The notes: generated by a model from the letters alone, not told the origin. A DNA stretch of 64,000 nt from an uncultured Candidatus Saccharibacteria bacterium (GCA_964585425.1 CAZPDI010000001.1:4804-68803), one strand, 5' to 3'; shown: positions 11,170 through 57,778, counted from the first letter of the stretch. Translations and numbers: made by a program.

Positions 11170-11209
11170 CCTTTGAGGGTCGGTGAGCGTCAAGGCTTGG
11201 CTTTGTCAC
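11168..11209. repeat. 3' box of cassette 2 (hairpin GACCtttgagGGTC plus GGCTTGGCTTTGTCAC)
   Basis: Same 16-nt core as 10305-10320, inverse of the 5' box. Confidence 0.55.
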
Positions 11210-11275
11210 TCACCTAAGTGTATATACACGATAAATACATTTAGGTGAGTATTATTAAGATAAACACAACTTCTA

Positions 11276-11304
11276 TTGACAAATAGGGTTTAGTTTGCTA
11301 TACT
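11276..11304 (+). promoter_or_regulatory. Predicted sigma70 promoter for cassette 3
   Basis: TTGACA, 17-nt spacer, TATACT. Confidence 0.5.
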
Positions 11305-11365
11305 TATGCGCAATCTGGTGGAACACCCATCCGATAGAACACAGACCACAACCCAAGGAAAGCCC

Positions 11366-12103
11366 ATGTCTCAGCTCGTCATCGTCCAGGGCCCCAAGCC
11401 CCGCACGTCCGCGGTGTCCGACAAGGATGCCCACAACCTCCGCCTCCAGGCGGACAAGGTGCTGGCCAGGCACCGCGGTGATCTCCCCCAGGAGATCGTC
11501 ACGCAGCTGACCAGCCCGATGCCCGGCATCGTGGGCATGGGACTGCACGACGCGGCCTCCTGGATCAAGCAGCGCACCGCCAACCTCAAGCTGCAGTACG
11601 TGCAGCAGCACCCCGACTGCGAGGCGGCCATGGCCCTCAAGACCCGAGTCGACAACGTCCTCAACGGCGAGTTCGGCGACAAGGTCAAAAAGAGCCTCGA
11701 CATGCGTGGTCAGCGCATCCTCGAGCTGGACCTGTACCAGATCTTGAGCACCGACCAGCTGAAGAGCTTCGCCCACTTCGTCAAGAAGGCCGAGGCAGTC
11801 GAGGGTCGCTTGCAGACCGAGAAGGCACGCAAGGCGGTGCCGGCCCAATCGCTCCAGATGCTGTTCCCGTCCAAGGAGAAGCGCGAGCGCAAGCCGAAGA
11901 AGGTCAAGCCGGCCTACGCCGGTCTCCCCGCACCGTCCACCGGGATCGTCACCGACTGGAAGAGCGACGTCGGCAGCGTCGGTGCCCCGAACCCCCAGGG
12001 TCCGGCGCCGGCACGCGGCGTCACCCTCCGCAAGTCCGACAAGGCTCGCGCCAAGGGAGTGAAGGGTGGTGGCGTCAAGACCCGTCCGGGGCGACGCAAC
12101 TGA
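11366..12103 (+). CDS. High-GC hypothetical protein with a lysine/arginine-rich C-terminal tail
   Basis: AAGGAAAG RBS. GC3 about 95% in this frame. The antisense ORF 11273..12130 is rejected as a GC artefact. C-terminal tail reads KEKRERKPKKVK...KARAKGVKGGGVKTRPGRRN. Confidence 0.5.
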   Translation: MSQLVIVQGPKPRTSAVSDKDAHNLRLQADKVLARHRGDLPQEIVTQLTSPMPGIVGMGLHDAASWIKQRTANLKLQYVQQHPDCEAAMALKTRVDNVLNGEFGDKVKKSLDMRGQRILELDLYQILSTDQLKSFAHFVKKAEAVEGRLQTEKARKAVPAQSLQMLFPSKEKRERKPKKVKPAYAGLPAPSTGIVTDWKSDVGSVGAPNPQGPAPARGVTLRKSDKARAKGVKGGGVKTRPGRRN

Positions 12104-30028: not shown

Positions 30029-30088
30029 ATAAGCTTCCTTTTATCTGGTTAGATTATAGCAAAGCCGGCACATTTGCACCACAATTAC

Positions 30089-30117
30089 TTGATTAAATAT
30101 TACTTTTATAGTAGAGT
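30089..30117 (+). promoter_or_regulatory. Predicted sigma70 promoter for the 30.2-kb cassette
   Basis: TTGATT, 17-nt spacer, TAGAGT. Confidence 0.4.
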
Positions 30118-30135
30118 TTGCTTATTCTTTTACAA

Positions 30136-30150
30136 TCTAGCTAATCAGCC
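30136..30150. repeat. Left inverted repeat TCTAGCTAATCAGCC
   Basis: 14 of 15 positions match the reverse complement of 30607-30621. Confidence 0.55.
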
Positions 30151-30181
30151 CACCACAACCAAACAAACAAAGGAGCGAGCG

Positions 30182-30556
30182 ATGATCACATGTGAAGTGC
30201 AGGACCAGGCTGGCGGGAAGTCCACGAGCGTCATCACCCTCGGTGATGCCCTGGCTGCCGTTGCCTACCTGATCGGCATCAGCGGGAACTCCCAGCTTGA
30301 GTACCACGAGCTGATCGAGGGCCAGTCGTTGACCATCATCTCGGAAGGACATGCCCTCGTTGGGCAGATCGAGATGCCGGACTTCGAGGAGGAGGAGCCC
30401 TACTTCGGCCTGATGTACACCTTCTCCAGCAACGGCGATCGCGACTTCGAGCTGTTCAGCCTGCTGGTTCTGCCGGCAATGTTGCTGAACCTGCAGCAAT
30501 GCGAACCGCAGGTGATCATCGAGCTCGAGCGGATGCGCCAACCGGTGACCGCCTGA
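30182..30556 (+). CDS. High-GC hypothetical acidic protein (124 aa)
   Basis: AAGGAG RBS 7 nt upstream. GC3 high. No family recognised. Confidence 0.5.
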   Translation: MITCEVQDQAGGKSTSVITLGDALAAVAYLIGISGNSQLEYHELIEGQSLTIISEGHALVGQIEMPDFEEEEPYFGLMYTFSSNGDRDFELFSLLVLPAMLLNLQQCEPQVIIELERMRQPVTA

Positions 30557-30575
30557 GGTTGCGGTGAGTAGGCCA

Positions 30576-30593
30576 GGTTCCCTCCGGGGAATC
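30576..30593 (+). terminator. Hairpin GGTTCCC-TCCG-GGGAATC
   Basis: Same hairpin type as the GGTCCC..GGGATC family. No immediate T-run. Confidence 0.35.
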
Positions 30594-30606
30594 TGTGCCG
30601 ACCACC

Positions 30607-30621
30607 GGCTGATTGGCTAGA
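30607..30621. repeat. Right inverted repeat GGCTGATTGGCTAGA
   Basis: Reverse complement of the left repeat at 30136-30150. Confidence 0.55.
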
Positions 30622-30630
30622 TAAAAAGAT

Positions 30631-31191
30631 TTATGATAAAAGTTTTTGAACTTGCGAGATCGAGGTATACAGCTCGGCTTGTAAGCCGGCTCGCAGGGCG
30701 CCGTCGACGTTGGCTTGGCGATCATCAAAGAATATAACATCTTGAGCCTCAAAACCTAATTGCTGTACAGCATACTGGTAAATACGAGCATCGGGCTTCA
30801 TCATATTTAATTCACCCGAAATAAAGATTTGATCAAAATGCCGAGTAATACCATGACCTTCCATATACGGCCGTAAGCTTGAGCCATCATTAGAAAGCAC
30901 GGCGGTTTTTATTCCCTTTTGTCGCAACTGATCAATGACTGCCAGCAAGGGGTGGTTGATAGCTACTTCGTTTTTAAGCTCCTGCTTAACAACCGAAACG
31001 GGACGTCCCACCCCGGCGGCTAATGCTTCGAAATACTGGTCTAGGCTAATCTCGTCCAGATCAATTTTGCGAGATGCCTCTTTTACCACATCATGGATGT
31101 CAGGATGTTGCGCTACTTGGTTTTCGGCCCAAATAATAACTTCGTCCGTTTGGATAACGCCATAAAAATCAAAGATGGCCGCTTTAATCAT
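30631..31191 (-). CDS. HAD-superfamily hydrolase
   Basis: N-terminal FDFYGVI (DxD-type motif I). Confidence 0.65.
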   Translation of the reverse strand: MIKAAIFDFYGVIQTDEVIIWAENQVAQHPDIHDVVKEASRKIDLDEISLDQYFEALAAGVGRPVSVVKQELKNEVAINHPLLAVIDQLRQKGIKTAVLSNDGSSLRPYMEGHGITRHFDQIFISGELNMMKPDARIYQYAVQQLGFEAQDVIFFDDRQANVDGALRAGLQAELYTSISQVQKLLS

Positions 31192-37580: not shown

Positions 37581-37606
37581 CCGTGGACGACAAAAACTTT
37601 CAGAAA

Positions 37607-38416: not shown

Positions 38417-39303
38417 TTGATTTCTCCGTACAGCTTCATAAATACTTCTTCGAGCTCCAGCTCACGGTTGGATATGCTAACAACTTCATACTTACTGAGT
38501 GCTTTTAAGAATTCGCTAACATTGCCAGTAACGGTGCACGTCATGACATTGTCTTCAAAATGTATATCCTTCATACTCTTAAACGATTTAAAGGCGTCAT
38601 GGGCTGGCTCTTTGGCAAAACGCACTTCGAATTCCTGTAATGAAGATTGGCGAAGCTTATTAACGGTGCTGACTTCGGCCAATTCGCCGCCCCGGATAAA
38701 GCCGACGCGATCACAAACCTTTTGGACCTCACTTAAGTTATGACTACTCATAAAGGTGGTGCCGCCATTAGCTTGATGATCGGCCAGTAACTCATAAAAT
38801 GCCTCTTGCATCAATGGGTCTAGCCCAGTAGTTGGCTCATCCATAATAAGCAGCTGCGGTTTGTGCATCATGGCAGCAATCAAACCAATCTTTTGTTTGT
38901 TGCCGCGCGAGAGGTGCTTGATGCGCGGTCGCAAATCGGCCTGTAGCTTACTGGCCAAGATGGCAATCTGACCACTCTCCACATCGCCATGGAGGTTTGC
39001 CATGTAGCCGATGTATTGCTCAGCCCGCAAATTATCGTACATACTCATATCCCCGGCCAAGTAGCCGATGTGCTTGTGGAGCTCTTTATAATCTTGTACC
39101 GAATCATATCCCAAGATTTTAATCGAGCCGGAAGTAGGATGTATCAAATTCAACATGGCGCGTATAGCAGTAGTTTTACCAGCACCGTTTGGCCCTAAAA
39201 ACCCGAAAATCTCTTTTTCTTTAAAGGTCAGGTTTATGTCTTTAAGCGCAGTCAGGTTACCGAATTGCTTGCATAAATCCTTAATTTCTACCGCATACTT
39301 CAT
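38413..39303 (-). CDS. ABC transporter ATP-binding protein
   Basis: Walker A GPNGAGKTT, signature LSRGNKQKIG, Walker B LLIMDEPT. Confidence 0.85.
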   Translation of the reverse strand: MKYAVEIKDLCKQFGNLTALKDINLTFKEKEIFGFLGPNGAGKTTAIRAMLNLIHPTSGSIKILGYDSVQDYKELHKHIGYLAGDMSMYDNLRAEQYIGYMANLHGDVESGQIAILASKLQADLRPRIKHLSRGNKQKIGLIAAMMHKPQLLIMDEPTTGLDPLMQEAFYELLADHQANGGTTFMSSHNLSEVQKVCDRVGFIRGGELAEVSTVNKLRQSSLQEFEVRFAKEPAHDAFKSFKSMKDIHFEDNVMTCTVTGNVSEFLKALSKYEVVSISNRELELEEVFMKLYGEIK

Positions 39304-39315
39304 ATGCTTATTGTA

Positions 39316-39942
39316 CTACCAGTCGAAGTATTTCTCAATTTCGGCATGCAGTACGGCTAACGGATCTTGATCATCCGTATGCTTAGCATCTTCCGGGGCA
39401 GCAGCATCGGCTTTATTCTTTGGCTTAGCCTTGGGTCGCTTCTTTTTATAGGCCAAGGTGCTTTTGAGGTTGTTCATAAAATGGAGGTAAGGCTCAAACA
39501 TTTCTTCTTTATACAGGGCCGAGTATTTATTTCGATTCGGTATGATGAGCGTTTCAAGCTTGTCTTGTTCTATAAAGTACTTCACCAAGCACTGGAAGTC
39601 GCCGTCACCGCTTATCACAATTGCTTTATCGTATTTGTCATAATCTATCATGGCCTGCAGCACCAGCTCGGCGTCACAGTTACCCTTGGTGGTGCCGTCT
39701 TTATGCTCGATAGTCGGTTTATAAATACATACAAAACCGGCCGCCTCCAAGGTGTTATAGAGGTCTTCGTGCCCCTCAATAAAACCCACAAAAATATAGG
39801 CCTTCACCACGTTGTAATTTTCGGCTAGATAGGCTCGGAAACGCTTATGATCAAGCGGCCAGCCCATTTCGCGAATGGAGAGGTTGAGGTTTTGACTATC
39901 GATAAATGCATAATTGCCGAGCTGGTCGGTCTTGGGTTCCAT
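39316..39942 (-). CDS. NYN-domain (LabA-like PIN-fold) protein
   Basis: FIDSQN...GNCDAEL...SGDGDF motifs of the NYN/LabA nuclease fold. Confidence 0.65.
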   Translation of the reverse strand: MEPKTDQLGNYAFIDSQNLNLSIREMGWPLDHKRFRAYLAENYNVVKAYIFVGFIEGHEDLYNTLEAAGFVCIYKPTIEHKDGTTKGNCDAELVLQAMIDYDKYDKAIVISGDGDFQCLVKYFIEQDKLETLIIPNRNKYSALYKEEMFEPYLHFMNNLKSTLAYKKKRPKAKPKNKADAAAPEDAKHTDDQDPLAVLHAEIEKYFDW

Positions 39943-39977
39943 GCAAAGATTGTATCACATACAGCCCCTCATTGCTA

Positions 39978-40006
39978 TTGCATTATGTCGCAAAATATGA
40001 TTAAAT
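39978..40006 (+). promoter_or_regulatory. Predicted promoter of module 1
   Basis: TTGCAT, 17-nt spacer, TTAAAT. The TGATTAAAT block recurs in the 40688 promoter. Confidence 0.35.
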
Positions 40007-40040
40007 AGTATGGTTCTGCTACCTATCCCTAAGGATTCCA

Positions 40041-40415
40041 ATGAATGCACCTGCCCGTCCCATGCCCGACATCACCGATGTGGAGCTGACCAAGAAGATC
40101 ATCGATGAACGTGTGAAGCACCACAACCTGCGCCATGAAGATGGTGAAGCGATCTGGATGGTAGTCACGGCCATCGGTCATGCCATCAAGATCGGTGATC
40201 CTCAGTACAGCCCGATGATCGACCGCAACGTCACGGGGCTGCGCAACGAGGCGAGGCCAGGCGAAGTTCCGGTCATCTTGCTGTCCGACCTGAACCGCAT
40301 CTTCTGTGACGACACGTTGATACGCGAGCTGCAGCGGGTGTTCCCGAGCATCGTCAATGATGCGGCGCGCGTTGCCTGCTGGAAGTTCCGCAACTGCATG
40401 TACGGATGCGACTGA
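40041..40415 (+). CDS. High-GC hypothetical protein (124 aa), module 1 gene A
   Basis: TAAGGAT RBS. GC3 high. No family recognised. Confidence 0.45.
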   Translation: MNAPARPMPDITDVELTKKIIDERVKHHNLRHEDGEAIWMVVTAIGHAIKIGDPQYSPMIDRNVTGLRNEARPGEVPVILLSDLNRIFCDDTLIRELQRVFPSIVNDAARVACWKFRNCMYGCD

Positions 40416-40417
40416 TC

Positions 40418-40627
40418 ATGCGCCTTCGGATCCCCTGGCGCAAGCAAACCGTGCCGCCGCCACCCGCGACTGTCGCGATGAAGGCTGCGCCCCTGGTGCC
40501 GCCACCTCATCGCCGGATGACGGCCGAAGAACGCGCTGCGTGCTGCCAAGATCAGAGGAAGATCAAGCTGCGTGCTGCCAAGCGTTGTCGGCGCAAGGCC
40601 CGAAAGCGCCGACTGCGCAACAAGTAA
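40418..40627 (+). CDS. Pro-rich/basic small protein, paralog 1 (alternative start 40406)
   Basis: GACTGATCATG junction with the upstream gene is conserved in paralog 42234..42467. Differences between the paralogs are often synonymous in this frame. Confidence 0.5.
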   Translation: MRLRIPWRKQTVPPPPATVAMKAAPLVPPPHRRMTAEERAACCQDQRKIKLRAAKRCRRKARKRRLRNK

Positions 40628-40645
40628 CCCCCGTGAGGCGGATCG

Positions 40646-40680
40646 CCGAAAGGTCCCTCTTGCGGGGGATCTTTCGTTAT
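40646..40680 (+). terminator. Family hairpin GAAAGGTCCC-tcttgcg-GGGGATCTTTC plus GTTAT
   Basis: 9-bp stem including G-U pairs, with a U-rich tail. Confidence 0.5.
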
Positions 40681-40687
40681 GGTGATA

Positions 40688-40716
40688 TTGATTTATACCT
40701 GTAAATGTGATTAAAT
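40688..40716 (+). promoter_or_regulatory. Predicted promoter of unit 2
   Basis: TTGATT, 17-nt spacer, TTAAAT. AAAGGAGAG RBS follows. Confidence 0.35.
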
Positions 40717-40750
40717 TTCCCTATTCCGTTTCGAGTCCAAAGGAGAGACC

Positions 40751-40984
40751 ATGACGGACGCACATGCCACGGCCGTCTCCACGGTCTATTTTTGGCTCGA
40801 GTACGAGTTGGGTATCGATAATCCTGATCACGTTGAACTGACCATGATTATCGAGAATGGCTGGCTGCGCTATCGGTGCCCGGCCCACGACATCACCCCG
40901 CTTGAAATCGCCCGCCTCGAAGCTGCCTGCCGGCACCACGCCCATTCTCTTGAAGTGCACCTGAACCTGGAGGTTCAATCATGA
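40751..40984 (+). CDS. High-GC small hypothetical protein (77 aa)
   Basis: AAGGAGAG RBS. ATGA overlap with the next gene. Confidence 0.4.
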   Translation: MTDAHATAVSTVYFWLEYELGIDNPDHVELTMIIENGWLRYRCPAHDITPLEIARLEAACRHHAHSLEVHLNLEVQS

Positions 40985-41733
40985 TTGTCCACAAGCACGA
41001 CATCGATACCGCAGCTCGTCTGGCCGCCAAAGAGCGGTTCATGAACGAGTCATGGCTGGATGATCGCAAGGTGCGATCATGGTTCGCTTGGCTCGGTATC
41101 CGTCCTGACGGTCATCAAGCATTGCGCATCTTGCGCGCTGTGCATGCCACGGCTGCCACCGTGCGTGAGTACAAGATCCACCATCGCCACACGCGCTTCG
41201 GTCGAACGATGCGCCTGCAGCGCCGGCTCCCACCGTGGCCCGCCAAGTACGCGGATACCCCGGTCATCAATGCCGCGCAGATGCTGCTGGTGACTCAGCG
41301 CACGGACTACATCCACCTCACGGAGCTGACGCGACCAATTACGGGTACCAGTTATCGGCACGGCGACAATCGACGCGTCGATATGGAAACGTGCAAGATG
41401 TTCCTGGAGAACGTGCAGAGCAAGTTCATGCGCGAAGCCGTTTGGTCAGATGAGTTGGTATGTATCGAGAGCTTTGCGCGGCTCGGCCTGACGCCCGATG
41501 AGCTGCTGGTGGCCGAGATGGCTCTGATCCGTCTGATGAGTAGGTATCGGCACGAAAAGGGGCTTACCTGGTATCTGATGCCGACCTATGGCAGCCGGAG
41601 CCGCCGCTTGCACACCCTCACCATGGGTGATTTCTTGAACATCACCCGATTTCTCCAACCCAACTATGGCGACACCGACATGGAGTTTCTCATGACGCTG
41701 GCCGATCGTCTGCGTTCGCGACTTGCGACCTGA
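40981..41733 (+). CDS. High-GC hypothetical protein (250 aa)
   Basis: GC3 high. Translationally coupled to the preceding ORF. No family recognised. Confidence 0.45.
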   Translation: MIVHKHDIDTAARLAAKERFMNESWLDDRKVRSWFAWLGIRPDGHQALRILRAVHATAATVREYKIHHRHTRFGRTMRLQRRLPPWPAKYADTPVINAAQMLLVTQRTDYIHLTELTRPITGTSYRHGDNRRVDMETCKMFLENVQSKFMREAVWSDELVCIESFARLGLTPDELLVAEMALIRLMSRYRHEKGLTWYLMPTYGSRSRRLHTLTMGDFLNITRFLQPNYGDTDMEFLMTLADRLRSRLAT

Positions 41734-41764
41734 TCTCGACACATACCCTCGCGGGGGCTTTTCT

Positions 41765-41798
41765 ACGGAAAGGTCCCTGCGGGGGATCTTTCGTTTAT
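41765..41798 (+). terminator. Family hairpin ACGGAAAGGTCCC-TGCGG-GGGATCTTTCG plus TTTAT
   Basis: Near-identical copy at 42492-42525. Confidence 0.55.
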
Positions 41799-41801
41799 AG
41801 C

Positions 41802-41830
41802 TTGCAATATCAATACTTTAAATGTATAAT
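41802..41830 (+). promoter_or_regulatory. Predicted sigma70 promoter of module 2
   Basis: TTGCAA, 17-nt spacer, TATAAT. AAGGAG RBS at 41849. Confidence 0.5.
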
Positions 41831-41859
41831 TTGTAAATCCGTACGACCAAGGAGTACCC

Positions 41860-42231
41860 TTGACCGAAGCCAATACCCTACCCAAGGCCGATGCCAGCGT
41901 CAAGCTGTCCGACGACATCATCGCAAGCTGCTACGAGGGCTGCGATCCCCGTGAGTCCGATCGAGCTCGCGGCTGCATCGCCGCCCTCAAGGACCTGCTA
42001 CGGCTCGCCGAGAAGACGCCGAACGACGCGCGCTACCAGGAGATCCGGGAGTTCGACGCCGACACCCTGACCGTTGGCCAGTTCATCACCCTGATGTACC
42101 TGCCGGCGATGTCGCCGAATCAGCCCCGCCAGCTGATGCGCAACGTGCGTAGCAACTGGGGGCGACTCAACCAGCGAGTTCTCATCGAGCTGCGAGACAA
42201 GCTGGATGAGCGCTACGAGCCCCAGGACTGA
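41860..42231 (+). CDS. High-GC hypothetical protein (123 aa), module 2 gene A
   Basis: TTG start 6 nt after AAGGAG. GC3 high. Not similar to 40041..40415. Confidence 0.45.
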   Translation: MTEANTLPKADASVKLSDDIIASCYEGCDPRESDRARGCIAALKDLLRLAEKTPNDARYQEIREFDADTLTVGQFITLMYLPAMSPNQPRQLMRNVRSNWGRLNQRVLIELRDKLDERYEPQD

Positions 42232-42233
42232 TC

Positions 42234-42467
42234 ATGGGCATCTGGAACTCTCGGCGCAAGAAGACGACACCACCGCCACCTCCTCCTGCACCTCCTCCGC
42301 CGCCCGCGGCTGTCGCGATGAAGACTGCACCACTGGCGCCGCCACCGCGTCGCCGAATGACGGCCGAAGAACGCGCCGCTCTCAAGCTGCCCAAAGTGAA
42401 GGCCCGGCAGCGCCTGGCCAAGAACCGACGCGCCAAGGTCAGGAAGCGCAAGCACAAGAAGTCCTGA
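42234..42467 (+). CDS. Pro-rich/basic small protein, paralog 2
   Basis: PPPPPPAPPPPPAAVAMKTAPLAPPPRRRMTAEERAA plus a K/R-rich tail. About 85% nucleotide identity to the 40418 paralog in the central part. Confidence 0.5.
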   Translation: MGIWNSRRKKTTPPPPPPAPPPPPAAVAMKTAPLAPPPRRRMTAEERAALKLPKVKARQRLAKNRRAKVRKRKHKKS

Positions 42468-42491
42468 TCGCGCCCCTGTGGGGACTTTTCT

Positions 42492-42525
42492 ACGGAAAGG
42501 TCCCTGCGGGGGATCTTTCGTTTTT
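42492..42525 (+). terminator. Family hairpin plus T5
   Basis: ACGGAAAGGTCCCTGCGGGGGATCTTTCGTTTTT. Confidence 0.55.
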
Positions 42526-42603
42526 AAATGAGAAAGACCCAGGATTTCTCCTAGGTCTAGGGGCCAGGGATTCGACTACCCTGCACCCCCATCCACAACC
42601 TGT

Positions 42604-43035
42604 TCACGCCTGCATATCAGGCGGCAAGGTGAAGGCGTCAGGGTACGAGATGACCAGATCATTATCGTTCAACGGATAGATCGCGCCCCAGTCCGTAAGC
42701 ACGAACCGTTCGCAGAACGTCTGATCCACAGCACGAGCATACGCTGGTATATCACGCAGATCGTCTTTCGTCAGCTCTTGCCCCCAGTAAAAGGTCCCTT
42801 TGTCATGAGAGTTGTGAGTAACGACCTTGTCATCAGGACATATGAATGTGTAGATCTCTGTGAAATCAAAGCCGATAGCCCCTTGCTGGTGCTTAACCCC
42901 GAGAGGGTCACGGCCTGCCGTGACGATGGCATCAACTCGAGACAACACGCCAGTCGGGTATATGTAGCGAGCCACCAACAACTTGGTGGCGACCACGTCG
43001 ATGTGCTTGGTCTGGCTTTCACCCTCGGTATCCAT
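42604..43035 (-). CDS. Hypothetical protein
   Basis: 143-aa ORF. No family recognised. Confidence 0.3.
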   Translation of the reverse strand: MDTEGESQTKHIDVVATKLLVARYIYPTGVLSRVDAIVTAGRDPLGVKHQQGAIGFDFTEIYTFICPDDKVVTHNSHDKGTFYWGQELTKDDLRDIPAYARAVDQTFCERFVLTDWGAIYPLNDNDLVISYPDAFTLPPDMQA

Positions 43036-43119
43036 GATGCGCCCCTTCGTTGGTTGGACTTGAAAAGGATAGTTGCATAATACTCCCGGCAGTTCACTGC
43101 CGCAAGAGTAAGCGGTTTA

Positions 43120-43545
43120 CTAGAGCCCCTCTATAAATGTCTCGATAAAGCTATTCAGCTTGCTGCCAACTCGAGTAATGATCGAGTCTCGCTCCAAAAT
43201 CTTGGGCTTAGCTATTAATGTAGCGGCAATCTCATTGCGGCGTGGCTTGCGGCCAGTGAATAAGTAATCGTTAATCAGTTTTTGCAATTCATCGGTCATT
43301 AGACCTTCTTCAACACACATGGCCTCAAAAGCTTTAGCGCGCTCGACATTCCAGAACGAATCAAACTCACCAGCTACATCTTCAGGATTCTCGATCTTGG
43401 GTAGCGATCGGGCAATAAATTTCTCAATCAGCTCGCGCTTGCTACGCAGCACGGCATTGCCCATAAGCGTGTTATTAAGATTATCGATTATCTGAGCTTT
43501 TTTTGATCTTCCGACATAACCCCTCGCTTTGTGTCTATTGTACAC
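43120..43545 (-). CDS. Stand-alone fragment resembling the C-terminal helical domain of a type I restriction enzyme R subunit (possible remnant)
   Basis: 141 aa. The ..FW..E.AKAFE..C.EE.L....L.K.I..YLFT.RKP.R.EI...L..KPK.LER..I..R.. pattern is recalled from HsdR C-termini. No helicase or nuclease part and no hsdM/hsdS nearby. Confidence 0.3.
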   Translation of the reverse strand: MYNRHKARGYVGRSKKAQIIDNLNNTLMGNAVLRSKRELIEKFIARSLPKIENPEDVAGEFDSFWNVERAKAFEAMCVEEGLMTDELQKLINDYLFTGRKPRRNEIAATLIAKPKILERDSIITRVGSKLNSFIETFIEGL

Positions 43546-43680
43546 GTTTTCTTCTAATGTTTATATCTGTCGCCATCTTGACATATCGCTTGTGCTAGCA
43601 TATTATACGTATATCCAATGGTTGTACCATTCAACTGTCGGGGAATTACATCCGAGAGCGACCTTCTTTAAAGAGGGTCG

Positions 43681-44283
43681 TTATTTTTTTGCGCGGTACA
43701 CCAGCGGCTTGCCCCAAATATCCTCACTTATTCTCAAAATATCAATGTAGCCATCGCCCCCTGTAAGAAGTTCACTAGATACATTATTTTTAGATGATAC
43801 AATATATACTTTTTTATCACGATTGCGGATAAAACTCACAAGTTCGAGGAAGTCTGAGTCGCCACTAAACAGGACGGCCACATCGTACGAATTGACTAGG
43901 GCTACAGCATCAATGGTAAGCTCAACATCCATATTACCCTTTTCAATAATTAATCCACTACCAGTTTTTATCTGCTTGAGTGGTTTTTTGCGGACTATAT
44001 ATCCCATTCTTTTTTGCAGTGCAGTGTAGAAAGAATGCTTATTCGAAACACTATACTCTCGAGTACCAACCTCGGGATAGGCATCATAATAGTAAATCTC
44101 TAATACACTTGCATGGTATTTTACTTTCAGATAGTTTTTGAGTTTTTTCATATCTAAAAGAACCCCTTTGGTCTTTTGGGCCTGCCAGAGATTAGAGGCA
44201 TCAATAAAAACGTGAACTCTTTTATTCATATCATTAATTATACGGTATTTGTTCGGTATTAGTCGAGGCCGTAATGTCCCCAC
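43681..44283 (-). CDS. NYN-domain (LabA-like) protein
   Basis: VFIDASN...GNMDVEL...SGDSDF motifs. Paralogous in fold to 39316..39942. Confidence 0.65.
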   Translation of the reverse strand: MGTLRPRLIPNKYRIINDMNKRVHVFIDASNLWQAQKTKGVLLDMKKLKNYLKVKYHASVLEIYYYDAYPEVGTREYSVSNKHSFYTALQKRMGYIVRKKPLKQIKTGSGLIIEKGNMDVELTIDAVALVNSYDVAVLFSGDSDFLELVSFIRNRDKKVYIVSSKNNVSSELLTGGDGYIDILRISEDIWGKPLVYRAKK

Positions 44284-44393
44284 CGTGTCCGTTCTTCAAA
44301 GTGGGGTTTTTGAGCTCGAGAAAGTCGATGATGGGTTGGATACCTACCTTGGCCGAAGTAGTAACTTCTAGGCCTTTATCATTTATGTAGTGC

Positions 44394-44422
44394 TTGCTTT
44401 TTTATAAGTTTTATGCTAGTAT
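44394..44422 (+). promoter_or_regulatory. Predicted sigma70 promoter
   Basis: TTGCTT, 17-nt spacer, TAGTAT. AAAGGAAA RBS before ATG 44458. Confidence 0.4.
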
Positions 44423-44457
44423 ATACGCATCTTGGCCGTCTAGCAAAAGGAAACATC

Positions 44458-44868
44458 ATGCCAAGCGCACAGACCATCCTCCCTCTGACCGCCGAACAGG
44501 TGGCCATGCCCGTGACCGCTGCCATCCTCACCACGGAGGACATCATCGGCGACCACGGGAGGTACCCGAAGGACATCGCTCACAGCTTGTCCACCATCTG
44601 CGAGTTCCTGCAGGAGGTCAAGCGGGAGGTCAAGCAGAGTCCAAGGGCCTACCTCGGCTGGTTGGAGTTGGCGGATGAGAACGGGGTGCGCTTCAGCGAG
44701 CGCGATTACCCCAGCATCACCGCAGGGTTCCTCCTGGCCGTGATGGAATCCAGCGCCGCCTGGGGCACCGTGATGAAGCACGGTCCGGAGGACTACTGCT
44801 TCGAGCAGCTGAACATGCTGAGGACGGCGGTCTACGCCCTCCTCTTCAAGCGGTCGCTGGCTGGCTGA
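44458..44868 (+). CDS. High-GC hypothetical protein (136 aa)
   Basis: Start at the first ATG after the RBS. GC3 high. Confidence 0.5.
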   Translation: MPSAQTILPLTAEQVAMPVTAAILTTEDIIGDHGRYPKDIAHSLSTICEFLQEVKREVKQSPRAYLGWLELADENGVRFSERDYPSITAGFLLAVMESSAAWGTVMKHGPEDYCFEQLNMLRTAVYALLFKRSLAG

Positions 44869-44894
44869 GGTTCTTCCTCCGCCAGCACCACGCC

Positions 44895-44934
44895 CCACTC
44901 GGGGTCTTCTACGGAAGACTCCGAGTGGGTTTTT
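44895..44934 (+). terminator. Hairpin CCACTCGGGGTCTTC-TACG-GAAGACTCCGAGTGG plus T5 and CGTTTAT
   Basis: 15-bp near-perfect stem. The CTACGGAAG and TTTCGTTTAT tail is shared with the hairpin family. Confidence 0.55.
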
Positions 44935-44944
44935 CGTTTATGCC

Positions 44945-46777
44945 TTACTTTTTGTTATTAGCGGCGCGCTTGCGCATGGAGGGGTTGAGTTCGCGTTTGC
45001 GGAGGCGGAGACTCTTGGGTGTGACTTCCAATAGCTCGTCGTTTTCCAGGAAGTCGATGCATTGTTCGAGGCTAAAAATAGTGTGTGGCGTGAGGCGGAC
45101 AGTGCCGTCACTGGATGAGCTACGCATGTTAGTGAGGTGTTTTTCTTTACAGACATTCATTTCCATATCGTCACCGCGGCTGTTGAGACCGACGATCTGA
45201 CCAGCGTAGACTTTGACGCCAGGACCAACGTACATGGTGCCGCGTTCTTCGGCCATTTGCAGGGCGTACGGCGTGGTCGTGCCAGTTTCGAAGGCAATCA
45301 GGGCACCGTTACGAAGTTGCTGCAGGGCGGGACCTTGCGGTTCGTAACCAACCATCAAGCTGTTCATGATAATTGTGCCCTTAGTGGCAGTTACTAAGAC
45401 GTTTCGAAGACCAAGTAAGGCTCGGGTTGGGAGTTCGTACACCAGTTTAGTGACGCCAGCGGCGTTGGCGAACTGCTCTTTAACGGTGGCGCGGCGTTGG
45501 CCAAGCTCCATTTGGACGGCACCGACGTATTCGGCCGGAACTTCGATGATGAGCTCTTCGATTGGCTCCATGGTCTTGCCGTTTTCTTGCTTGGTAACAA
45601 CTTGCGGGCGGCCAACTTCTAGCTCGTATCCTTCGCGGCGCATAGTTTCGATGAGCACCGACAGGTGTAGTTCGCCACGACCACTAACTAAATTGCCAAT
45701 TCCGCTGGGCTCGACACGCAGGCCAATATTGGTCTCCAGTTCTTTTTCGAGCCGTTCACCGATTTGACGGCTGGTAGTAAACTCACCTTCTAGACCCTTG
45801 AATGGACTAGTGTTTGGTCCTAGGTAAATCTGCAATGTTGGAGCTTCGATTTCCAGCACTGGTAGAGCTTCGGGCTGTTCGGCATCAGCAATGGTTTCAC
45901 CAATCTTGGCGTTAGCAATACCAGTAAGCTGGATAATCTCACCAGCAATGGCGCTGTCCACCGGATACTTGCTCACGCCTTGGCTGGCAAACACGCCATC
46001 AACTTTGGCTTTAGATTGCTTACCGTCTTTATCGATAAGGGTAACAGCATCACCAGTTTTAACACTACCGCGGGTAATGCGACCAACAGCGTATTTACCC
46101 TTAAATGAATCATACGAGAGAGCAGTGACAAGCATCTGGAAAGGCTTATCGAGCTCTACGTCTGGCGCAGGAATATCGTTCTTAATGGCAGTAAAGATTA
46201 CCTCCAGGTTAGCATCTTCTTCGGGATTAGCTGGCACCCCGGCCCAAGCTTTACCGGCGCGACCAATGGCGTAATAAATTGGGTAAAAGAGTTGATCTTC
46301 GTGCACGGCCAGCTCGAGGAAGAGGTCAGCTAATTCTTCTTCGACTTCGGCAATACGACTACCTGGCTTATCAATTTTGTTAATAACAACGATAGGCTTG
46401 AGACCCATGGCAAGTGCCTTAGAAAGCACAAACTTAGTTTGTGGCATCGGACCTTCTTGGGCGTCGACTATCAGTAAACAGCCGTCTGCCATATTAAGGG
46501 TTCGCTCTACCTCACCACCAAAGTCGGCGTGTCCAGGCGTATCGATAATATTAATGCGGATATCATCGTGCTGCACGGCCGTAACTTTAGCGGTAATAGT
46601 AATACCGCGCTCGCGCTCTTGGTCGCCACTATCCATGATCAGTTCTTGACCCATCTCGGCCTGGTTATCACGAAAGATTTTTGACTGCTTTAACAGGCCA
46701 TCTACCAGGGTAGTTTTACCGTGATCGACGTGAGCAATAATAGCAATATTACGAATGTTTTTTGGATCTTGTTGCAT
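44945..46777 (-). CDS. typA: Translational GTPase TypA/BipA
   Basis: [23 protein letters not shown]-motifs. 610-aa BipA architecture. Confidence 0.95.
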
Positions 46778-46883
46778 TAAAAAACGCCTCCCCGGCGTGC
46801 TAGGTATTATTAGAGTAATTATAGCATAAATATCCTAAATATCATACAATTAGACAGTTCGCCCATCTACTAAAGGGGAAGTA

Positions 46884-47258
46884 GTGCACCTCACTAATCC
46901 AAGTCGCCGCCGAACTGATTCTGACGTGGTCATGCTGGTTCGTACGCCAGGTGGCCACCTGGCTGTGCTGGTCTTTACTGCTACAGCCCGTGGACAACGC
47001 CTTCGTCTGGATAGTCAAACATGGAATGGTGTGACGTTTGACGATATGGATGACGCCATCAAAGCGCTCCAGGAAACGGCCGACGCTCACTTGATTACCG
47101 AGAACAACCGTGTGACGGACACGTTGCTTCATGCCAATCCATTGGATTCGCACTTCTTCTTGATGGAGCCCTGGGATCACAAACGCTTCATCGAAGCGAT
47201 CAAACGGGATGGTCTGTTCGATTGTCAGCGTCCGGTGTTCACACCCGTCACCCGCTGA
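46884..47258 (+). CDS. Hypothetical protein (124 aa, moderately GC-elevated)
   Basis: GTG start after AAAGGGGA. Followed by a hairpin plus CGTCGTTTATAAGG, resembling the cassette terminator tail. Confidence 0.35.
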   Translation: MHLTNPSRRRTDSDVVMLVRTPGGHLAVLVFTATARGQRLRLDSQTWNGVTFDDMDDAIKALQETADAHLITENNRVTDTLLHANPLDSHFFLMEPWDHKRFIEAIKRDGLFDCQRPVFTPVTR

Positions 47259-47326
47259 TTTCAGTAGCACCCACCTACGACAAGCCCACCGCTGGTTGTA
47301 GGTGGGCTTCGTCGTTTATAAGGTTA

Positions 47327-48412
47327 TTAGATGTTGTAGACAGGTTTGCCGAGAGCACGACCAACGGCTTGCGTAAGAGCACCCATGCCCATAATGTACA
47401 CCGCCATACCGGCAAAGATATTTAGCACCGGTACGAGATAAACCAGCAAGACTACGAGTGAACCGACGGCCATGATTACTAGCGGCTGATGCGAGTCTTG
47501 CAGTAATTTTCGACCGACAACGTAGGCTACCACCGGCCCAGACAAAATGCCAGCTCCTGCCCATACTATTCCAAGCAACAGAGCTAATGGAATGCCGACT
47601 ATTGTTACCAGGAGCAAGACCAAGACAAAAGGAAGTAAAAAGGTGGTTATGAGGCCAATGGCCAAGGTTTTGCTAGGTTTGGTTAGCACCAACTCCGCTA
47701 ACCCATTAAAGCGACGAGGAGCTACTATCACCAGCAGCATAGCAGTAATGAACATCATTAAATTAATGAAGAACAAGAAGCCCAGCCCAGCTTTAGGCGC
47801 GCTCTCTTTTGCTGATTCCTTGGCTTTGTTGTCTGGCGATTTGACCTGATTTACGGTTCCGTCCACCGAACCGGCGGAGACTGTTAAGTCATCGGTGCGG
47901 GCATCGAAATTACGAGCAACGTTGCCGGTAACTGTAACGGTAGCCCCGGCAGCATAAGCATCACGCGCTAGATTACCGGCTACCAAAACACTGGATCCGG
48001 CCAGTGTGGCGTCACCGCCAATTTTGGCATCTGGTTCAACGCTAACACTCTGGCCGGCTAGACTAATGGCACGCTGCACAGTGCCCGCTATACTCACGCT
48101 TTGGCCCGCAGCTCTGACACTGCCGTTAACCGTACCGCCGATTCTCACCTCTTGACCGGCGCACATCACATCGCCGTTAACCGTGCCGGTAACAAATACC
48201 GTTTTACCTGCACAAAATACATCGCCGTTAACTGTGCCCGCAATAGTAACGGTACTACCGGTAACAAATAAACTATGATCCACCACTTCCGTCGGTGATA
48301 CGACTGTATTGGTTCCAGATCGATATGGTTGATTGGCTGCTACAGCTACGCCGCCAAAGACAAAAATAGCCAACACCGCTGTAAGTGTCGACGTGAATGC
48401 TAATCGCTTCAT
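47327..48412 (-). CDS. Secreted/membrane protein with bactofilin-like repeats and a C-terminal multi-TM domain
   Basis: Signal peptide. Repeated (V/I)xGTVNGDV / AGQSVSIAGTV units. About five C-terminal TM helices. Confidence 0.45.
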   Translation of the reverse strand: MKRLAFTSTLTAVLAIFVFGGVAVAANQPYRSGTNTVVSPTEVVDHSLFVTGSTVTIAGTVNGDVFCAGKTVFVTGTVNGDVMCAGQEVRIGGTVNGSVRAAGQSVSIAGTVQRAISLAGQSVSVEPDAKIGGDATLAGSSVLVAGNLARDAYAAGATVTVTGNVARNFDARTDDLTVSAGSVDGTVNQVKSPDNKAKESAKESAPKAGLGFLFFINLMMFITAMLLVIVAPRRFNGLAELVLTKPSKTLAIGLITTFLLPFVLVLLLVTIVGIPLALLLGIVWAGAGILSGPVVAYVVGRKLLQDSHQPLVIMAVGSLVVLLVYLVPVLNIFAGMAVYIMGMGALTQAVGRALGKPVYNI

Positions 48413-55923: not shown

Positions 55924-56583
55924 TCAGGCTGCGAGTAACTGGACCCAGCCACCCTCGTACTGCGGGTTGACCTCATCGCGGTAGTGGGCACCGTGACCCA
56001 GCGCACCATCGACAACAATGGGCTTGCCAGCTTCACAGAGCGGACAAGCTTCGGCGTCGTAGGACGCGAAGTCCACGTGCGTCAGCTGCTCCAACCGGGG
56101 AACTCCGATGGCGTCAGCCTCCACACCGCCTCGGTTGCAGACGGCACTGATGCCGATCACCTCACCACCACAGGCTTCGATGGCCGCGCAGGTGCCCTGA
56201 ACCGAACTGCCAGTGGTCAGCAGATCCTCGATCACGAGAACGCGTTTGTTCTGCAGGTGCTGCGGGAAGCTCAGGCGATCGACCACGAAGTTGTTGCCCT
56301 CCTTGTCGGCCCACAGGCCAGGCACACGAAGACCCTTCTTGTGCAGTAGCCAGTTCGAGGCAGTGCTGGTGAGCGCCACGCCACCGGTTGCCGGTGATGC
56401 GACAACATCGAAACCGCCGTCGAATGGTCTGAGGAGATCCGAGACGATCTGGCTGAGCATCACTGGATCAGCGAAGATCGGGTCCATGCAGATGTAGCCC
56501 TCACCGTGTCCACCCTTCTTGTACACGAAGTGGTTGTCGAGAAAGACGGCTCCGACCTTCTGGAGGTACTCGAGAATGTCCAT
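55924..56583 (-). CDS. pyrE: Orotate phosphoribosyltransferase
   Basis: Start taken at MDILEY (TAGGAACG RBS). PRPP-binding motif VLVIEDLLTTGSS. High GC. Confidence 0.7.
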   Translation of the reverse strand: MDILEYLQKVGAVFLDNHFVYKKGGHGEGYICMDPIFADPVMLSQIVSDLLRPFDGGFDVVASPATGGVALTSTASNWLLHKKGLRVPGLWADKEGNNFVVDRLSFPQHLQNKRVLVIEDLLTTGSSVQGTCAAIEACGGEVIGISAVCNRGGVEADAIGVPRLEQLTHVDFASYDAEACPLCEAGKPIVVDGALGHGAHYRDEVNPQYEGGWVQLLAA

Positions 56584-56666
56584 GTGCGTTCCTAACGTGA
56601 GACGAATGCGCCAACTGGTCACATCCGAATTATTATCCTATTCATAAAAGTTATTTACAAGCATAA

Positions 56667-56734
56667 GTGTGTCGCCGGACGGGTGGGCAAAAAGTTTACA
56701 GTCCGAAGACCTTCTTCCTCCTCGCCCACCCGTC
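56667..56734 (-). terminator. Long-loop hairpin downstream of pyrF
   Basis: GGACGGGTGGGC ... GCCCACCCGTCC 12-bp arms. Confidence 0.35.
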
Positions 56735-56742
56735 CGAGCATG

Positions 56743-57675
56743 TCAGGCCGCCAGGCGAACTCGCTCGATGGTCTCGTGCATGTTGGAGGCCTCAGCTTCC
56801 GACGCCTCAGCCGGAGCCAGACCCTCGTACTGCTGGTTGTCGTGAGCATGGGTGATGCCGCTCGAGGAGTTGATGGCGATGCCAGCCTGCTGGCTGTTGT
56901 GTCCGTTCTGGTAGGCGGCTGCAGCGTCACCGCCCTGCTTGTTTCCTACCCCAGGGATCAGGATCGGAACCTGCTCGCCAACACAACGACGAACGTTGGC
57001 AAGGTCGTCGATGGACTCGGGACTTGCGCCGGCCACCACACCGACGTTGCCTCGCTTGTTCCAGCCCTCCAGGCTGGCGACGTTCTGTGCGACTCGCTCG
57101 TACAGGAAGCCCTCCATAGTCACGCCCATGAGGGTTGACGAGCAGGTATCAAGCTTCTGGAACTCCTCGGCGCCAGGGTTGGATGTACGAGTCAGTACGA
57201 AGACCCCCTTGTCGCCACGGTCCAGCCACGGGGCCATGGCCTGTGCACCCATGTAGTTGTGGACGGTGACTGCATCAGCTCCGCAGACGTCGTAGGCGAA
57301 CGAGGCGTAGGTGTCATTGGTCGCTCCGATGTCGCCGGCCTTGAGGTCAAGGATCTTGACGACATCTGGCGCGTGGGTACGCATGTGCTTGAAGAGCAAC
57401 TCCAATGCCTGGATGCCTTCATGGCCATGCTTGAGGTAGAACCCCAAGTTGGGTTTCATCCAGCCGACTTTGCCGGCCAGGGCCTCGACGATCGGGAACA
57501 AGAAGGTGGTGAGCGTACCGCAGATGCTGGCCCGCTGGAAGCCCTCCGGGATGCGTGTGATCACCGGATCATCCTCGCGATAGGTGCTCTTGAGCGTTGG
57601 GTCGAGACCGGCGCAGACTGCACGGTGCTGCCCGGCGTTCAAGGCCACGAGCTCCGAAAAGCTGAGGTCGGACAT
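56743..57675 (-). CDS. pyrF: Orotidine-5'-phosphate decarboxylase, type 2 (long form)
   Basis: Start taken at MSDLSF after GGAGAGGAG. VCAGLDP and DLKAGDIGATN (type-2 D.K.GDIG.T motif). High GC. Confidence 0.7.
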   Translation of the reverse strand: MSDLSFSELVALNAGQHRAVCAGLDPTLKSTYREDDPVITRIPEGFQRASICGTLTTFLFPIVEALAGKVGWMKPNLGFYLKHGHEGIQALELLFKHMRTHAPDVVKILDLKAGDIGATNDTYASFAYDVCGADAVTVHNYMGAQAMAPWLDRGDKGVFVLTRTSNPGAEEFQKLDTCSSTLMGVTMEGFLYERVAQNVASLEGWNKRGNVGVVAGASPESIDDLANVRRCVGEQVPILIPGVGNKQGGDAAAAYQNGHNSQQAGIAINSSSGITHAHDNQQYEGLAPAEASEAEASNMHETIERVRLAA

Positions 57676-57778
57676 GTCAGACTCCTCTCCCATCTGACGA
57701 TGAGATAGATTCGTGCGACCGAATTAGCCACATCCATATTAGTATGGTTTCTGGGACGCTTAAGAGCAAGCGTAAGAG

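What the first reader, a model, noticed from the sequence alone, without database searches (positions are those of the whole stretch)
39316..44283. Accessory island bounded by two NYN-domain paralogs, containing a probable HsdR C-terminal remnant
Two LabA/NYN PIN-fold nuclease-like genes (39316..39942 and 43681..44283) bracket the high-GC units. They also bracket an unknown 143-aa ORF and a 141-aa stand-alone ORF resembling only the C-terminal helical domain of type I restriction R subunits. No hsdM, hsdS or helicase/nuclease part is present. The picture is one of a decayed defence/R-M neighbourhood reused as a landing pad for foreign cassettes.
Basis: partly seen in the sequence, partly recalled or inferred. 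Interest (0 to 1): 0.5.

Follow-up and report, generated by a model that had tools for sequence, protein, structure and literature searches.

The report
Dead restriction system scar in variable region
In a tiny soil bacterium (Saccharibacteria), the flagged stretch is a fast-changing gap between two stable gene blocks: it holds the leftover stump of a deleted restriction-modification system, one accessory nuclease-like gene, and several odd GC-rich genes of unknown function. The first two are ordinary, and only the GC-rich genes are unusual.

Summary
Both NYN genes pass Pfam (E 4e-13 and 7e-24), and the 141-aa ORF matches only the C-terminal half of EcoR124_C (E 2e-18). No hsdM or hsdS lies anywhere in the 64 kb.

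A relative (L169) carries an intact rhuM-hsdM-hsdS-abi-hsdR operon at the same place. The window keeps only hsdM's ribosome-binding site plus 7 codons, joined at a 7-nt microhomology to the last 133 hsdR codons. This is a deletion scar, not a stand-alone gene. A second junction fuses the scar to the orphaned start of the SAM riboswitch of metK, and metK is gone.

The two NYN genes are not an island-bounding pair and share only 29% identity. NYN1 is a core gene that heads a conserved ABC operon. NYN2 is a low-GC accessory gene, and its subfamily often sits beside restriction-modification genes.

The high-GC units are self-contained promoter-ORF-terminator cassettes encoding clade-restricted orphan proteins. 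They also sit beside the intact system in L169 and at other intergenic sites, so they do not depend on R-M decay. Their origin, insertion mechanism and function remain unexplained.

The parts
39316..39942 (-). NYN1: LabA-like NYN-domain gene. Core gene and conserved left flank of the variable region; first gene of the ABC-transporter operon.
   Evidence: Pfam NYN E 4e-13. GC3 0.56, like its neighbours. 13 nt from the ABC ATPase gene. Orthologs of 84-98% identity, and about 65% identity across Patescibacteria. Same NYN-ABC-sigma-LCP synteny in L169-L173 and L190. dN/dS 0.06. D15, D90, D113 and D115 conserved.
39978..40006 (+). Promoter-like site of the first cassette, divergent from NYN1 (TTGCAT-N17-TATGATTAAAT).
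   Evidence: Conserved in window, L169, L170 and L190 up to the -10 element; the downstream ORFs are unrelated.
40041..40627 (+). High-GC cassette A: gcA1 (40041-40415, 124 aa) plus the small Pro/Arg-rich gcA2 (40418-40627), coupled by TGATCATG. A weaker hairpin terminator follows at 40628-40680.
   Evidence: GC3 0.77 and 0.72. No Pfam, PHROG or PADLOC hit. gcA2 matches gcC2 (62% over 47 aa). Hairpin.
40688..41795 (+). High-GC cassette B: promoter 40688-40716, gcB1 40751-40984, gcB2 40981-41733, terminator 41746-41795.
   Evidence: 91.6% nt identity to L086. Only two homologs in 5.8 billion proteins. dS 0.08/0.27 against 0.95 for bipA; dN/dS 0.28. 18-bp hairpin, -35.3 kcal/mol, z -7.6.
41802..42522 (+). 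High-GC cassette C: promoter 41802-41830, gcC1 41860-42231, gcC2 42234-42467, terminator 42473-42522.
   Evidence: Promoter 10/12 and terminator. GC3 0.84 and 0.71. gcC1's only real homolog is P0019 (30%), which sits next to NYN1 in L190.
42535..43035 (-). orf143 (42604-43035) with its own terminator hairpin (42535-42558). Orphan gene of unknown function.
   Evidence: No hit in any family library. GC3 0.64. Terminator. Single-sequence AF2 model unusable, pLDDT 33.
43123..43504 (-). hsdR 3' remnant: the last 133 codons (809-941) of a type I restriction R subunit. It forms most of the 141-aa ORF 43120-43545.
   Evidence: 78% nt and 85% aa identity to the C-terminus of the intact 941-aa HsdR of L169. 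EcoR124_C profile 134-260. Matches EcoR124I HsdR residues 883-1031.
43497..43555 (-). Remnant of the rhuM 3' end, the hsdM Shine-Dalgarno, and hsdM codons 1-7 (ATG 43517-43515, MSEDQKK). The deletion junction lies in the A-run at about 43498-43505.
   Evidence: 90% identity to L169 294-350. Nucleotide reading of both parental sites shows a shared AAAGAAA. The window has A7, so the hsdM frame stops after 9 codons.
43563..43692 (-). Orphaned upstream region of metK: NYN2 terminator hairpin (43658-43681), promoter region, and the first ~24 nt of a SAM-I riboswitch (43563-43586). metK and the rest of the riboswitch are deleted.
   Evidence: 82% identity to the spacer upstream of metK in L086. Alignment with L086 and L001. 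RF00162 at 69 and 62 bits in L086 and L001. No Rfam hit and no metK in the window.
43681..44283 (-). NYN2: accessory LabA-like NYN-domain gene (likely start 44229, 182 aa).
   Evidence: Pfam NYN E 7e-24. PADLOC NYN 6e-13 and HEC-09 5e-8. GC3 0.36. Absent near bipA or NYN1 in relatives. It occupies the slot that holds DUF3800 in L086. Subfamily enriched next to R-M genes.
44394..44929 (+). High-GC cassette D, outside the NYN bracket: promoter about 44394-44430, ORF 44458-44868 (136 aa), terminator 44894-44929 abutting the bipA stop.
   Evidence: GC3 0.84. 16-bp hairpin, -34.4 kcal/mol, z -6.9. No family hits.
44945..46777 (-). bipA/typA: conserved right flank of the variable region.
   Evidence: 77-93% identity to Saccharibacteria BipA. 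Cassettes or defence genes abut its 3' end in L001 and L086.

Best explanation
The interval between bipA (44945) and the NYN1-ABC operon (39942) is a hypervariable spacer in the chromosome of a soil/peat Saccharimonadales lineage. It is not an island delimited by two NYN paralogs.

NYN1 is a core gene. The 141-aa 'HsdR_C' ORF is a deletion scar. An ancestral type I R-M operon, organised as in relative L169 (rhuM-hsdM-x-hsdS-abi-hsdR), lost everything between hsdM codon 7 and hsdR codon ~809 by illegitimate recombination at a 7-nt microhomology (AAAGAAA). A one-base-shorter A-run now puts the hsdR frame out of register with the hsdM start. The long ORF therefore exists only through a fortuitous upstream GTG.

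A second junction joins this scar to the orphaned promoter region and first ~24 nt of the SAM-I riboswitch of metK. So metK and whatever lay between it and rhuM are also gone from this site. The R-M system is non-functional here (inferred).

NYN2 is a compositionally foreign accessory gene with an intact four-acidic-residue NYN site. It fills the slot that holds DUF3800 in another relative. Its subfamily tends to sit beside R-M genes, so I infer a defence-associated ribonuclease role; this is not shown.

The GC-rich units are autonomous promoter-SD-ORF-terminator cassettes. They encode clade-restricted orphan proteins under purifying selection. They insert antiparallel to core genes at recurrent slots and are exchanged between lineages, independently of the state of the R-M system.
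For: Taxon and flanks.

Scar:
- Window 43504-43127 equals HsdR codons 809-941 of L169 (78% nt, 85% aa).
- Window 43555-43498 equals the rhuM end plus hsdM start of L169 (90%).
- Both parental sites share AAAGAAA; the window has A7.
- An independent contig (L084) is identical across the junction.
- No other HsdR, HsdM or HsdS signal in 64 kb.
- The short 'homologs' are contig-truncated or pseudogenised full-length hsdR genes.
- dN is 0.10 with saturated dS against L169, so the fragment was constrained until recently.

metK loss.

NYN1 is core.

NYN2 is accessory and R-M-linked:
- Composition and family hits.
- R-M genes lie within 3 kb in 19/67 loci against 1/79 bipA control loci.
- With an independent query panel the figures are 7/67 against 1/79, Fisher p 0.024.

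Cassettes:
- Architecture.
- Orphan status.
- Purifying selection and low dS.
- Conserved promoter with swapped ORFs.
- Discrete presence/absence.
- Present beside the intact R-M in L169.
Against: - Only 10 kb upstream of NYN1 is visible in L169, so the order bipA...metK...rhuM in the ancestor is inferred from three different relatives and is not seen in one genome.
- The metK-leader/rhuM junction is not clean; about 10 nt are unaccounted for.
- The hsdM-hsdR junction is one base shorter than a simple microhomology join predicts, so a later slip or a different parental sequence must be assumed.
- Translation from the GTG or the internal ATG cannot be excluded.
- The NYN2/R-M association is partly ascertainment-biased and compares different taxon sets.
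- No function is shown for NYN2, orf143 or any cassette.
- metK may exist elsewhere in the genome.
Confidence: 0.8

Rival explanations
1. One reading: two NYN paralogs delimit one accessory island, and a decayed R-M neighbourhood has been reused as the landing pad for foreign cassettes.
For: Both genes are NYN. The HsdR piece is a remnant. Content between the flanks varies among relatives.
Against: The NYN genes share 29% identity and belong to different subfamilies. NYN1 is core. Cassette D lies outside the bracket. Cassettes coexist with an intact R-M in L169 and occur without any R-M or NYN in L001 and at other spacers.
Confidence: 0.1
2. The 141-aa ORF is a functional stand-alone HsdR C-terminal domain protein, for example a decoy that binds a methyltransferase core. 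This domain mediates complex assembly in EcoR124I.
For: The ORF is intact and lies downstream of a formerly active promoter region. Several short EcoR124_C ORFs exist in databases. The sequence is well conserved against L169 (85% aa).
Against: The short database ORFs are contig ends or pseudogenes. The ORF start is a GTG in the former rhuM/hsdM spacer with no Shine-Dalgarno, and the real SD and ATG read a 9-codon frame. There is no hsdM partner in 64 kb.
Confidence: 0.05
3. The high-GC units are genes recently captured from the high-GC actinobacterial hosts of Saccharibacteria (ordinary host-to-epibiont HGT).
For: GC3 of 0.67-0.96 resembles Actinobacteria. Saccharibacteria are epibionts of Actinobacteria and naturally competent (PMC10633639 abstract). 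pyrE/pyrF-like genes with high GC3 elsewhere in the window look like classical HGT.
Against: There are no homologs outside this clade in searches of 5.8 and 1.8 billion proteins. Promoters, UTRs and terminators are AT-rich and shared between cassettes and between genomes. No compositional amelioration gradient is seen.
Confidence: 0.2
4. The mosaic composition is an assembly or binning chimera of a Saccharibacteria genome with high-GC reads.
For: The window comes from a metagenome-assembled genome, and GC changes sharply over short distances.
Against: Independent Logan assemblies of two runs span the junctions at 100% identity. The same architecture appears in five other samples.
Confidence: 0.02
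5. The whole interval is an integrated mobile element (ICE, prophage or integron).
For: Variable content, a composition mosaic and defence genes.
Against: The 64 kb contains no integrase, transposase or relaxase. The only tRNA is at 3280. No flanking direct repeats were found. There are no phage or viral matches. The cassettes carry their own promoters, unlike integron cassettes.
Confidence: 0.05

Closest known systems
Type I restriction-modification R subunit (HsdR, EcoR124I type; Pfam EcoR124_C PF12008; PDB 2W00, 5J3N)
   Same: The fragment aligns with the C-terminal helical domain (EcoR124I residues 883-1031). It is 85% identical to the C-terminus of an intact HsdR in a relative.
   Different: Only 133 of ~941 codons remain. 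There is no nuclease or motor domain, no hsdM and no hsdS. The fragment is fused to the first 7 codons of hsdM. It is a pseudogene scar, not an enzyme.
LabA-like NYN domain proteins (PF01936, cluster NYN.COG1432; structure 2QIP of VPA0982; Matelska et al. 2017, PMC5499597)
   Same: Both genes pass the Pfam threshold and match 2QIP. Both keep the four conserved acidic residues said to bind the metal ion (PMC5499597).
   Different: They are single-domain proteins of two distinct Patescibacteria subfamilies. No member of this group has a demonstrated nuclease substrate. NYN1 carries a clade-specific Lys-rich and acidic C-terminal tail.
Defence islands / R-M hotspots between conserved core genes
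   Same: The same chromosomal slot holds a type I R-M with Abi and RhuM (L169), a type II Dcm/REase/Vsr with DUF3800 (L086), or NYN2 with an R-M scar (window).
   Different: The hotspot also accumulates non-defence-like orphan cassettes of strongly deviant GC. No mobile-element genes are visible.
Integron gene-cassette arrays
   Same: Tandem, same-orientation small units with variable ORFs and conserved unit boundaries. The first unit sits behind a conserved promoter.
   Different: Each unit has its own promoter and intrinsic terminator. No integrase was found. The 3' elements are plain long hairpins with a U-tract, not attC-like. Units also occur singly in scattered spacers.

Membership tests
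NYN domain (PF01936, LabA-like) | Sequence match to the family profile above the curated threshold | tested here: met
   NYN1 50.5 bits and NYN2 85.4 bits, against a cutoff of 24.2. Both match 2QIP.
NYN domain (PF01936, LabA-like) | Four conserved acidic residues of the predicted metal-binding site | tested here: met
   D15, D90, D113 and D115 (NYN1 numbering) are invariant across both subfamilies. The feature is as described in PMC5499597.
NYN domain (PF01936, LabA-like) | Nuclease activity on RNA | not testable with these tools
   Needs a biochemical assay.
Type I R-M system (functional HsdR/HsdM/HsdS) | HsdR with an N-terminal nuclease domain and an SF2 motor (HSDR_N, ResIII/DEAD, T1R_D3) | tested here: not met
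   Only EcoR124_C positions 134-260 are present. tblastn with an intact relative's HsdR finds only residues 809-941.
Type I R-M system (functional HsdR/HsdM/HsdS) | Adjacent hsdM (N6_Mtase) and hsdS (Methylase_S) | tested here: not met
   No hit in 64 kb at E <= 1 apart from noise. Only the first 7 hsdM codons remain.
Type I R-M system (functional HsdR/HsdM/HsdS) | C-terminal helical domain homologous to EcoR124_C | tested here: met
   E 2.2e-18. 85% identical to the L169 HsdR C-terminus.
Integron cassette array | Tyrosine-recombinase integrase (IntI) next to the array | tested here: not met
   No recombinase among the Pfam-scanned ORFs of the window.
Integron cassette array | Promoterless cassettes ending in attC sites | tested here: not met
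   Each unit has a sigma-70-like promoter and a 16-19 bp hairpin plus U-tract typical of intrinsic terminators. attC was not modelled explicitly.
Defence island / variable hotspot | Different defence genes at the same core-flanked locus in related genomes | tested here: met
   Type I R-M with Abi in L169, Dcm/REase II/Vsr with DUF3800 in L086, and NYN2 with the scar in the window.
Integrated mobile element (ICE / prophage / genomic island) | Integrase, tRNA or direct-repeat borders, phage or conjugation genes | tested here: not met
   Searches found none.

The most novel reading that the evidence does not exclude
The GC-rich units may be a previously undescribed kind of mobile gene cassette specific to a Saccharimonadales clade.

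- Each is a complete promoter-ORF-terminator module.
- They encode fast-turning-over orphan proteins with host-like (actinobacterial) GC3.
- They insert antiparallel into intergenic spacers without any visible recombinase.
- They are swapped behind conserved promoters and exchanged between lineages (dS 0.08-0.27 against 0.95 for bipA).

Possible roles are factors acting on or in the actinobacterial host, or counter-defence. The NYN1-proximal and bipA-proximal slots would be preferred docking sites, with R-M and other defence genes merely sharing the same recombination hotspot.
Probability: 0.3. Interest if true: 0.75.

Novelty: new member of a known kind. Interest (0 to 1): 0.4.

Why it matters
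The R-M scar is resolved to the nucleotide. It gives a clean example of how defence systems, and even metK with its riboswitch, are lost by microhomology deletion in an ultra-small epibiont genome. It also shows that 'stand-alone HsdR_C' ORFs in metagenome catalogues are artefacts of decay or contig ends.

The analysis separates a core NYN gene of Patescibacteria from an R-M-associated accessory NYN subfamily, which is worth testing as a defence nuclease.

The larger payoff would come from the GC-rich cassettes. If they prove to be a mobile, host-directed gene pool, they would open a handle on how Saccharibacteria adapt to actinobacterial hosts.

Tried and rejected
- PHROGs, the INPHARED phage set and IMG/VR gave nothing for the cassette proteins or orf143.
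- A 15-mer from the shared terminator hit 16 viral contigs. By my own rough estimate that is no more than chance, and I dropped it.
- Rfam found no RNA family in 39000-47500.
- The 1990-aa 'homolog' of gcC1 (P0018) is a eukaryotic repeat protein. It scored through 14 repeated stretches and is spurious.
- Single-sequence AlphaFold models of orf143 and gcB2 had pLDDT 33, so no fold search was run.
- hhalign of the small gcC1 family against other cassette proteins showed no relationship. All-against-all BLASTP linked only gcA2-gcC2 and gcC1-L001_424.
- bipA-anchored synteny across 80 Saccharibacteria genomes was uninformative except for L001, because gene order is not conserved at 77-82% BipA identity.
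- Five literature searches found no description of high-GC cassettes in Saccharibacteria.
- I considered a conserved stand-alone HsdR_C family and rejected it.
- I considered and rejected the idea that NYN1 and NYN2 arose by recent duplication.

Full report
**Source and context.** BipA (44945-46777, minus strand) is 77-93% identical to BipA of Saccharibacteria/Saccharimonadales metagenome-assembled genomes. The window is therefore a chromosome segment of an environmental Saccharibacterium with about 48% GC. Almost all core genes lie on the minus strand. They are ordinary housekeeping genes such as uvrABC, glycolysis and pentose-phosphate enzymes, and transporters.

**Observation.** The four ORFs exist as described.
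- NYN1 (39316-39942) and NYN2 (43681-44283) match Pfam NYN at E 4e-13 and 7e-24.
- The 141-aa ORF (43120-43545) matches EcoR124_C at E 2e-18, but only profile positions 134-260.
- A profile of the fragment and its relatives aligns to residues 883-1031 of EcoR124I HsdR.
- The 143-aa ORF has no hit in Pfam, PHROGs, PADLOC or NCBIfam.
- The GC-rich units are real. GC3 is 0.67-0.84 against 0.48-0.58 in neighbouring genes, and independent short-read contigs cross the composition junctions at 100% identity.

**The HsdR piece is a deletion scar.** The database 'homologs' of the fragment are mostly short ORFs, but none is a true stand-alone gene.
- L083 and L085 are contig-truncated.
- L082 is a full-length hsdR with an in-frame stop.
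- L081 is an hsdR broken by many frameshifts.

The decisive locus is L169, a 130-kb contig whose NYN1 ortholog is 91% identical and followed by the same ABC-sigma-LCP-LtaS synteny. Upstream of NYN1 it carries five GC-rich small ORFs and an intact rhuM-hsdM-(207 aa)-hsdS-Abi_C-hsdR (941 aa) operon.

Two window segments map onto this operon:
- Window 43504-43127 equals codons 809-941 of that HsdR (78% nt, 85% aa).
- Window 43555-43498 equals the last codons of rhuM, the hsdM Shine-Dalgarno and hsdM codons 1-7 (90% nt).

Read at the nucleotide level, both parental sites in L169 contain AAAGAAA, and the window joins them there. A clean join would be in frame (MSEDQKK-AQIIDN...). The window has A7 where 8 nt are expected. 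The hsdM ATG (43517) therefore reads only 9 codons, and the 141-aa ORF depends on a GTG in the former rhuM/hsdM spacer.

No other HsdR, HsdM or HsdS signal exists in the 64 kb. Against L169 the fragment shows dN 0.10 with saturated dS, so it was under constraint until a recent deletion.

**A second junction.** Window 43576-43692 is 82% identical to the spacer upstream of metK in L086. In L086 and L001 that spacer contains a SAM-I riboswitch (RF00162, 69 and 62 bits). The window keeps the upstream terminator, the promoter region and about 24 nt of the riboswitch (43563-43586), and then switches to the rhuM tail. Neither metK nor a riboswitch is in the window.

**The NYN genes.** They share 29% identity and fall into two subfamilies. 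Both keep the four acidic residues D15/D90/D113/D115 that define the NYN metal site (PMC5499597).

NYN1 is a core gene:
- It has native composition.
- It lies 13 nt upstream of the ABC ATPase gene.
- It has thousands of Patescibacteria homologs at about 65% identity.
- Its dN/dS is 0.06.
- It is in the same position in L169-L173 and L190.

NYN2 is accessory:
- Its GC3 is 0.36.
- It hits the PADLOC NYN and HEC-09 models.
- It is not near bipA or NYN1 in any relative.
- It occupies the slot, with the same terminator, that holds a DUF3800 gene in L086.

In 67 metagenome loci with NYN2-type genes, 19 have R-M genes within 3 kb. These include N6_Mtase/HSDR_N_2, N6_N4_Mtase, HsdS, MmeI and DpnI (Pfam). 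The control figure is 1 of 79 bipA loci. With a query panel not derived from those loci the counts are 7/67 against 1/79, p 0.024.

**The locus as a hotspot.** The content between the two flanks differs in each relative.
- L086: bipA-DUF3800-metK-Dcm-type II REase (PADLOC 5e-43)-Vsr, then cassettes.
- L001: bipA-cassettes-metK.
- L169: type I R-M, cassettes, NYN1.
- L173 and L190: other cassettes next to NYN1.

The flanks are fixed and the content is not.

**The cassettes.** Each unit has a sigma-70-like promoter, a Shine-Dalgarno, one or two ORFs, and a 16-19 bp hairpin (-34 to -38 kcal/mol, z -6.6 to -7.6) followed by a U-tract.
- The proteins are orphans. gcB2 has two database relatives, itself and L086. 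gcC1 has one, which sits next to NYN1 in L190.
- Unit B is 91.6% identical to L086, with dS 0.08-0.27 against 0.95 for bipA and dN/dS 0.28. It is a real gene that was exchanged after the genomes diverged.
- The NYN1-proximal promoter is conserved in window, L169 and L190, while the ORF behind it differs.
- Discrete presence/absence polymorphisms exist at unrelated spacers.
- GC-rich segments make up 12-29% of loci in this clade, against a median of 0 in 80 other Saccharibacteria bipA loci.
- No recombinase is visible.

Because cassettes sit beside the intact R-M in L169, they do not depend on R-M decay. Their origin, insertion mechanism and function remain open.

**Verdict.**
- The HsdR-remnant reading is confirmed and sharpened to a nucleotide-level scar.
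- The 'two NYN paralogs bound an island' and 'decayed R-M reused as landing pad' readings are not supported.
- As a defence-hotspot scar the finding is ordinary. The associated cassettes are the unusual element.

Noticed in passing
window 10012-12103 (+): A second array of three GC-rich cassettes (GC3 0.71-0.87) lies between the Xaa-Pro aminopeptidase gene and uvrA. It has its own family of consensus promoters, shared 5'UTRs and shared terminators. One protein is Cys-rich (zinc-finger-like) and one has a Lys/Arg-rich tail.
   Followed up: partly
window 30064-30637 (+); L173 14830-14837: A single GC-rich cassette (ORF 30182-30556, GC3 0.75) is a discrete ~570-bp insertion between the HAD hydrolase and pyrophosphatase genes. 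Relative L173 has only a few bases there. No convincing target-site duplication was seen.
   Followed up: partly
L169 12343-13170 (also L170, L171) vs window 37581-37606: The relatives carry a 211-aa GC-rich cassette (GC3 0.81, with promoter and hairpin) between the ABC permease and sigma-factor genes. The window and L173 have only a 26-40 nt spacer at that point.
   Followed up: partly
window 55924-57693 (-): Phosphoribosyltransferase-like and OMP-decarboxylase-like genes (pyrE/pyrF type) have GC3 of 0.73-0.78 on the core strand. They look like conventional horizontally acquired metabolic genes, unlike the orphan cassettes.
   Followed up: no
window 40413-40420 and 42229-42236; L086 about 71-310: Cassettes A and C, and one in L086, carry a second small ORF (~70 aa). 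It has a Pro-rich N-terminal half and an Arg/Lys-rich tail with RRMT(A/P)EERA, and is coupled to the variable first ORF by TGATCATG. Many cassette first ORFs in several genomes begin MTDA(P/H).
   Followed up: partly
window 43563-43586 (-); L086 5629-5735; L001 6634-6746: The relatives have a SAM-I riboswitch plus metK at this locus. The window retains only the first ~24 nt of the riboswitch and has no metK in 64 kb. Whether the organism has lost SAM synthetase altogether is unknown.
   Followed up: partly
window 46884-47258 (+): A 124-aa ORF between bipA and a bactofilin-like gene is conserved in L086 (66% aa, dN/dS 0.09) but has no family hit. In L001 the same spacer holds two GC-rich cassettes instead.
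   Followed up: partly
L081 1431-4258: An hsdR broken into at least six frame segments lies next to a type IV secretion/conjugation-like gene cluster (TrbL, TraG, PrgI, T4SS pilin). It is either a decayed gene or an indel-prone assembly.
   Followed up: no
window 39316-39450 (-), NYN1 residues ~165-208: NYN1 and its closest orthologs carry a Lys-rich and then acidic C-terminal extension (…DQDPLAVLHAEIEKYFDW). The ~173-aa orthologs of other Patescibacteria lack it.
   Followed up: no
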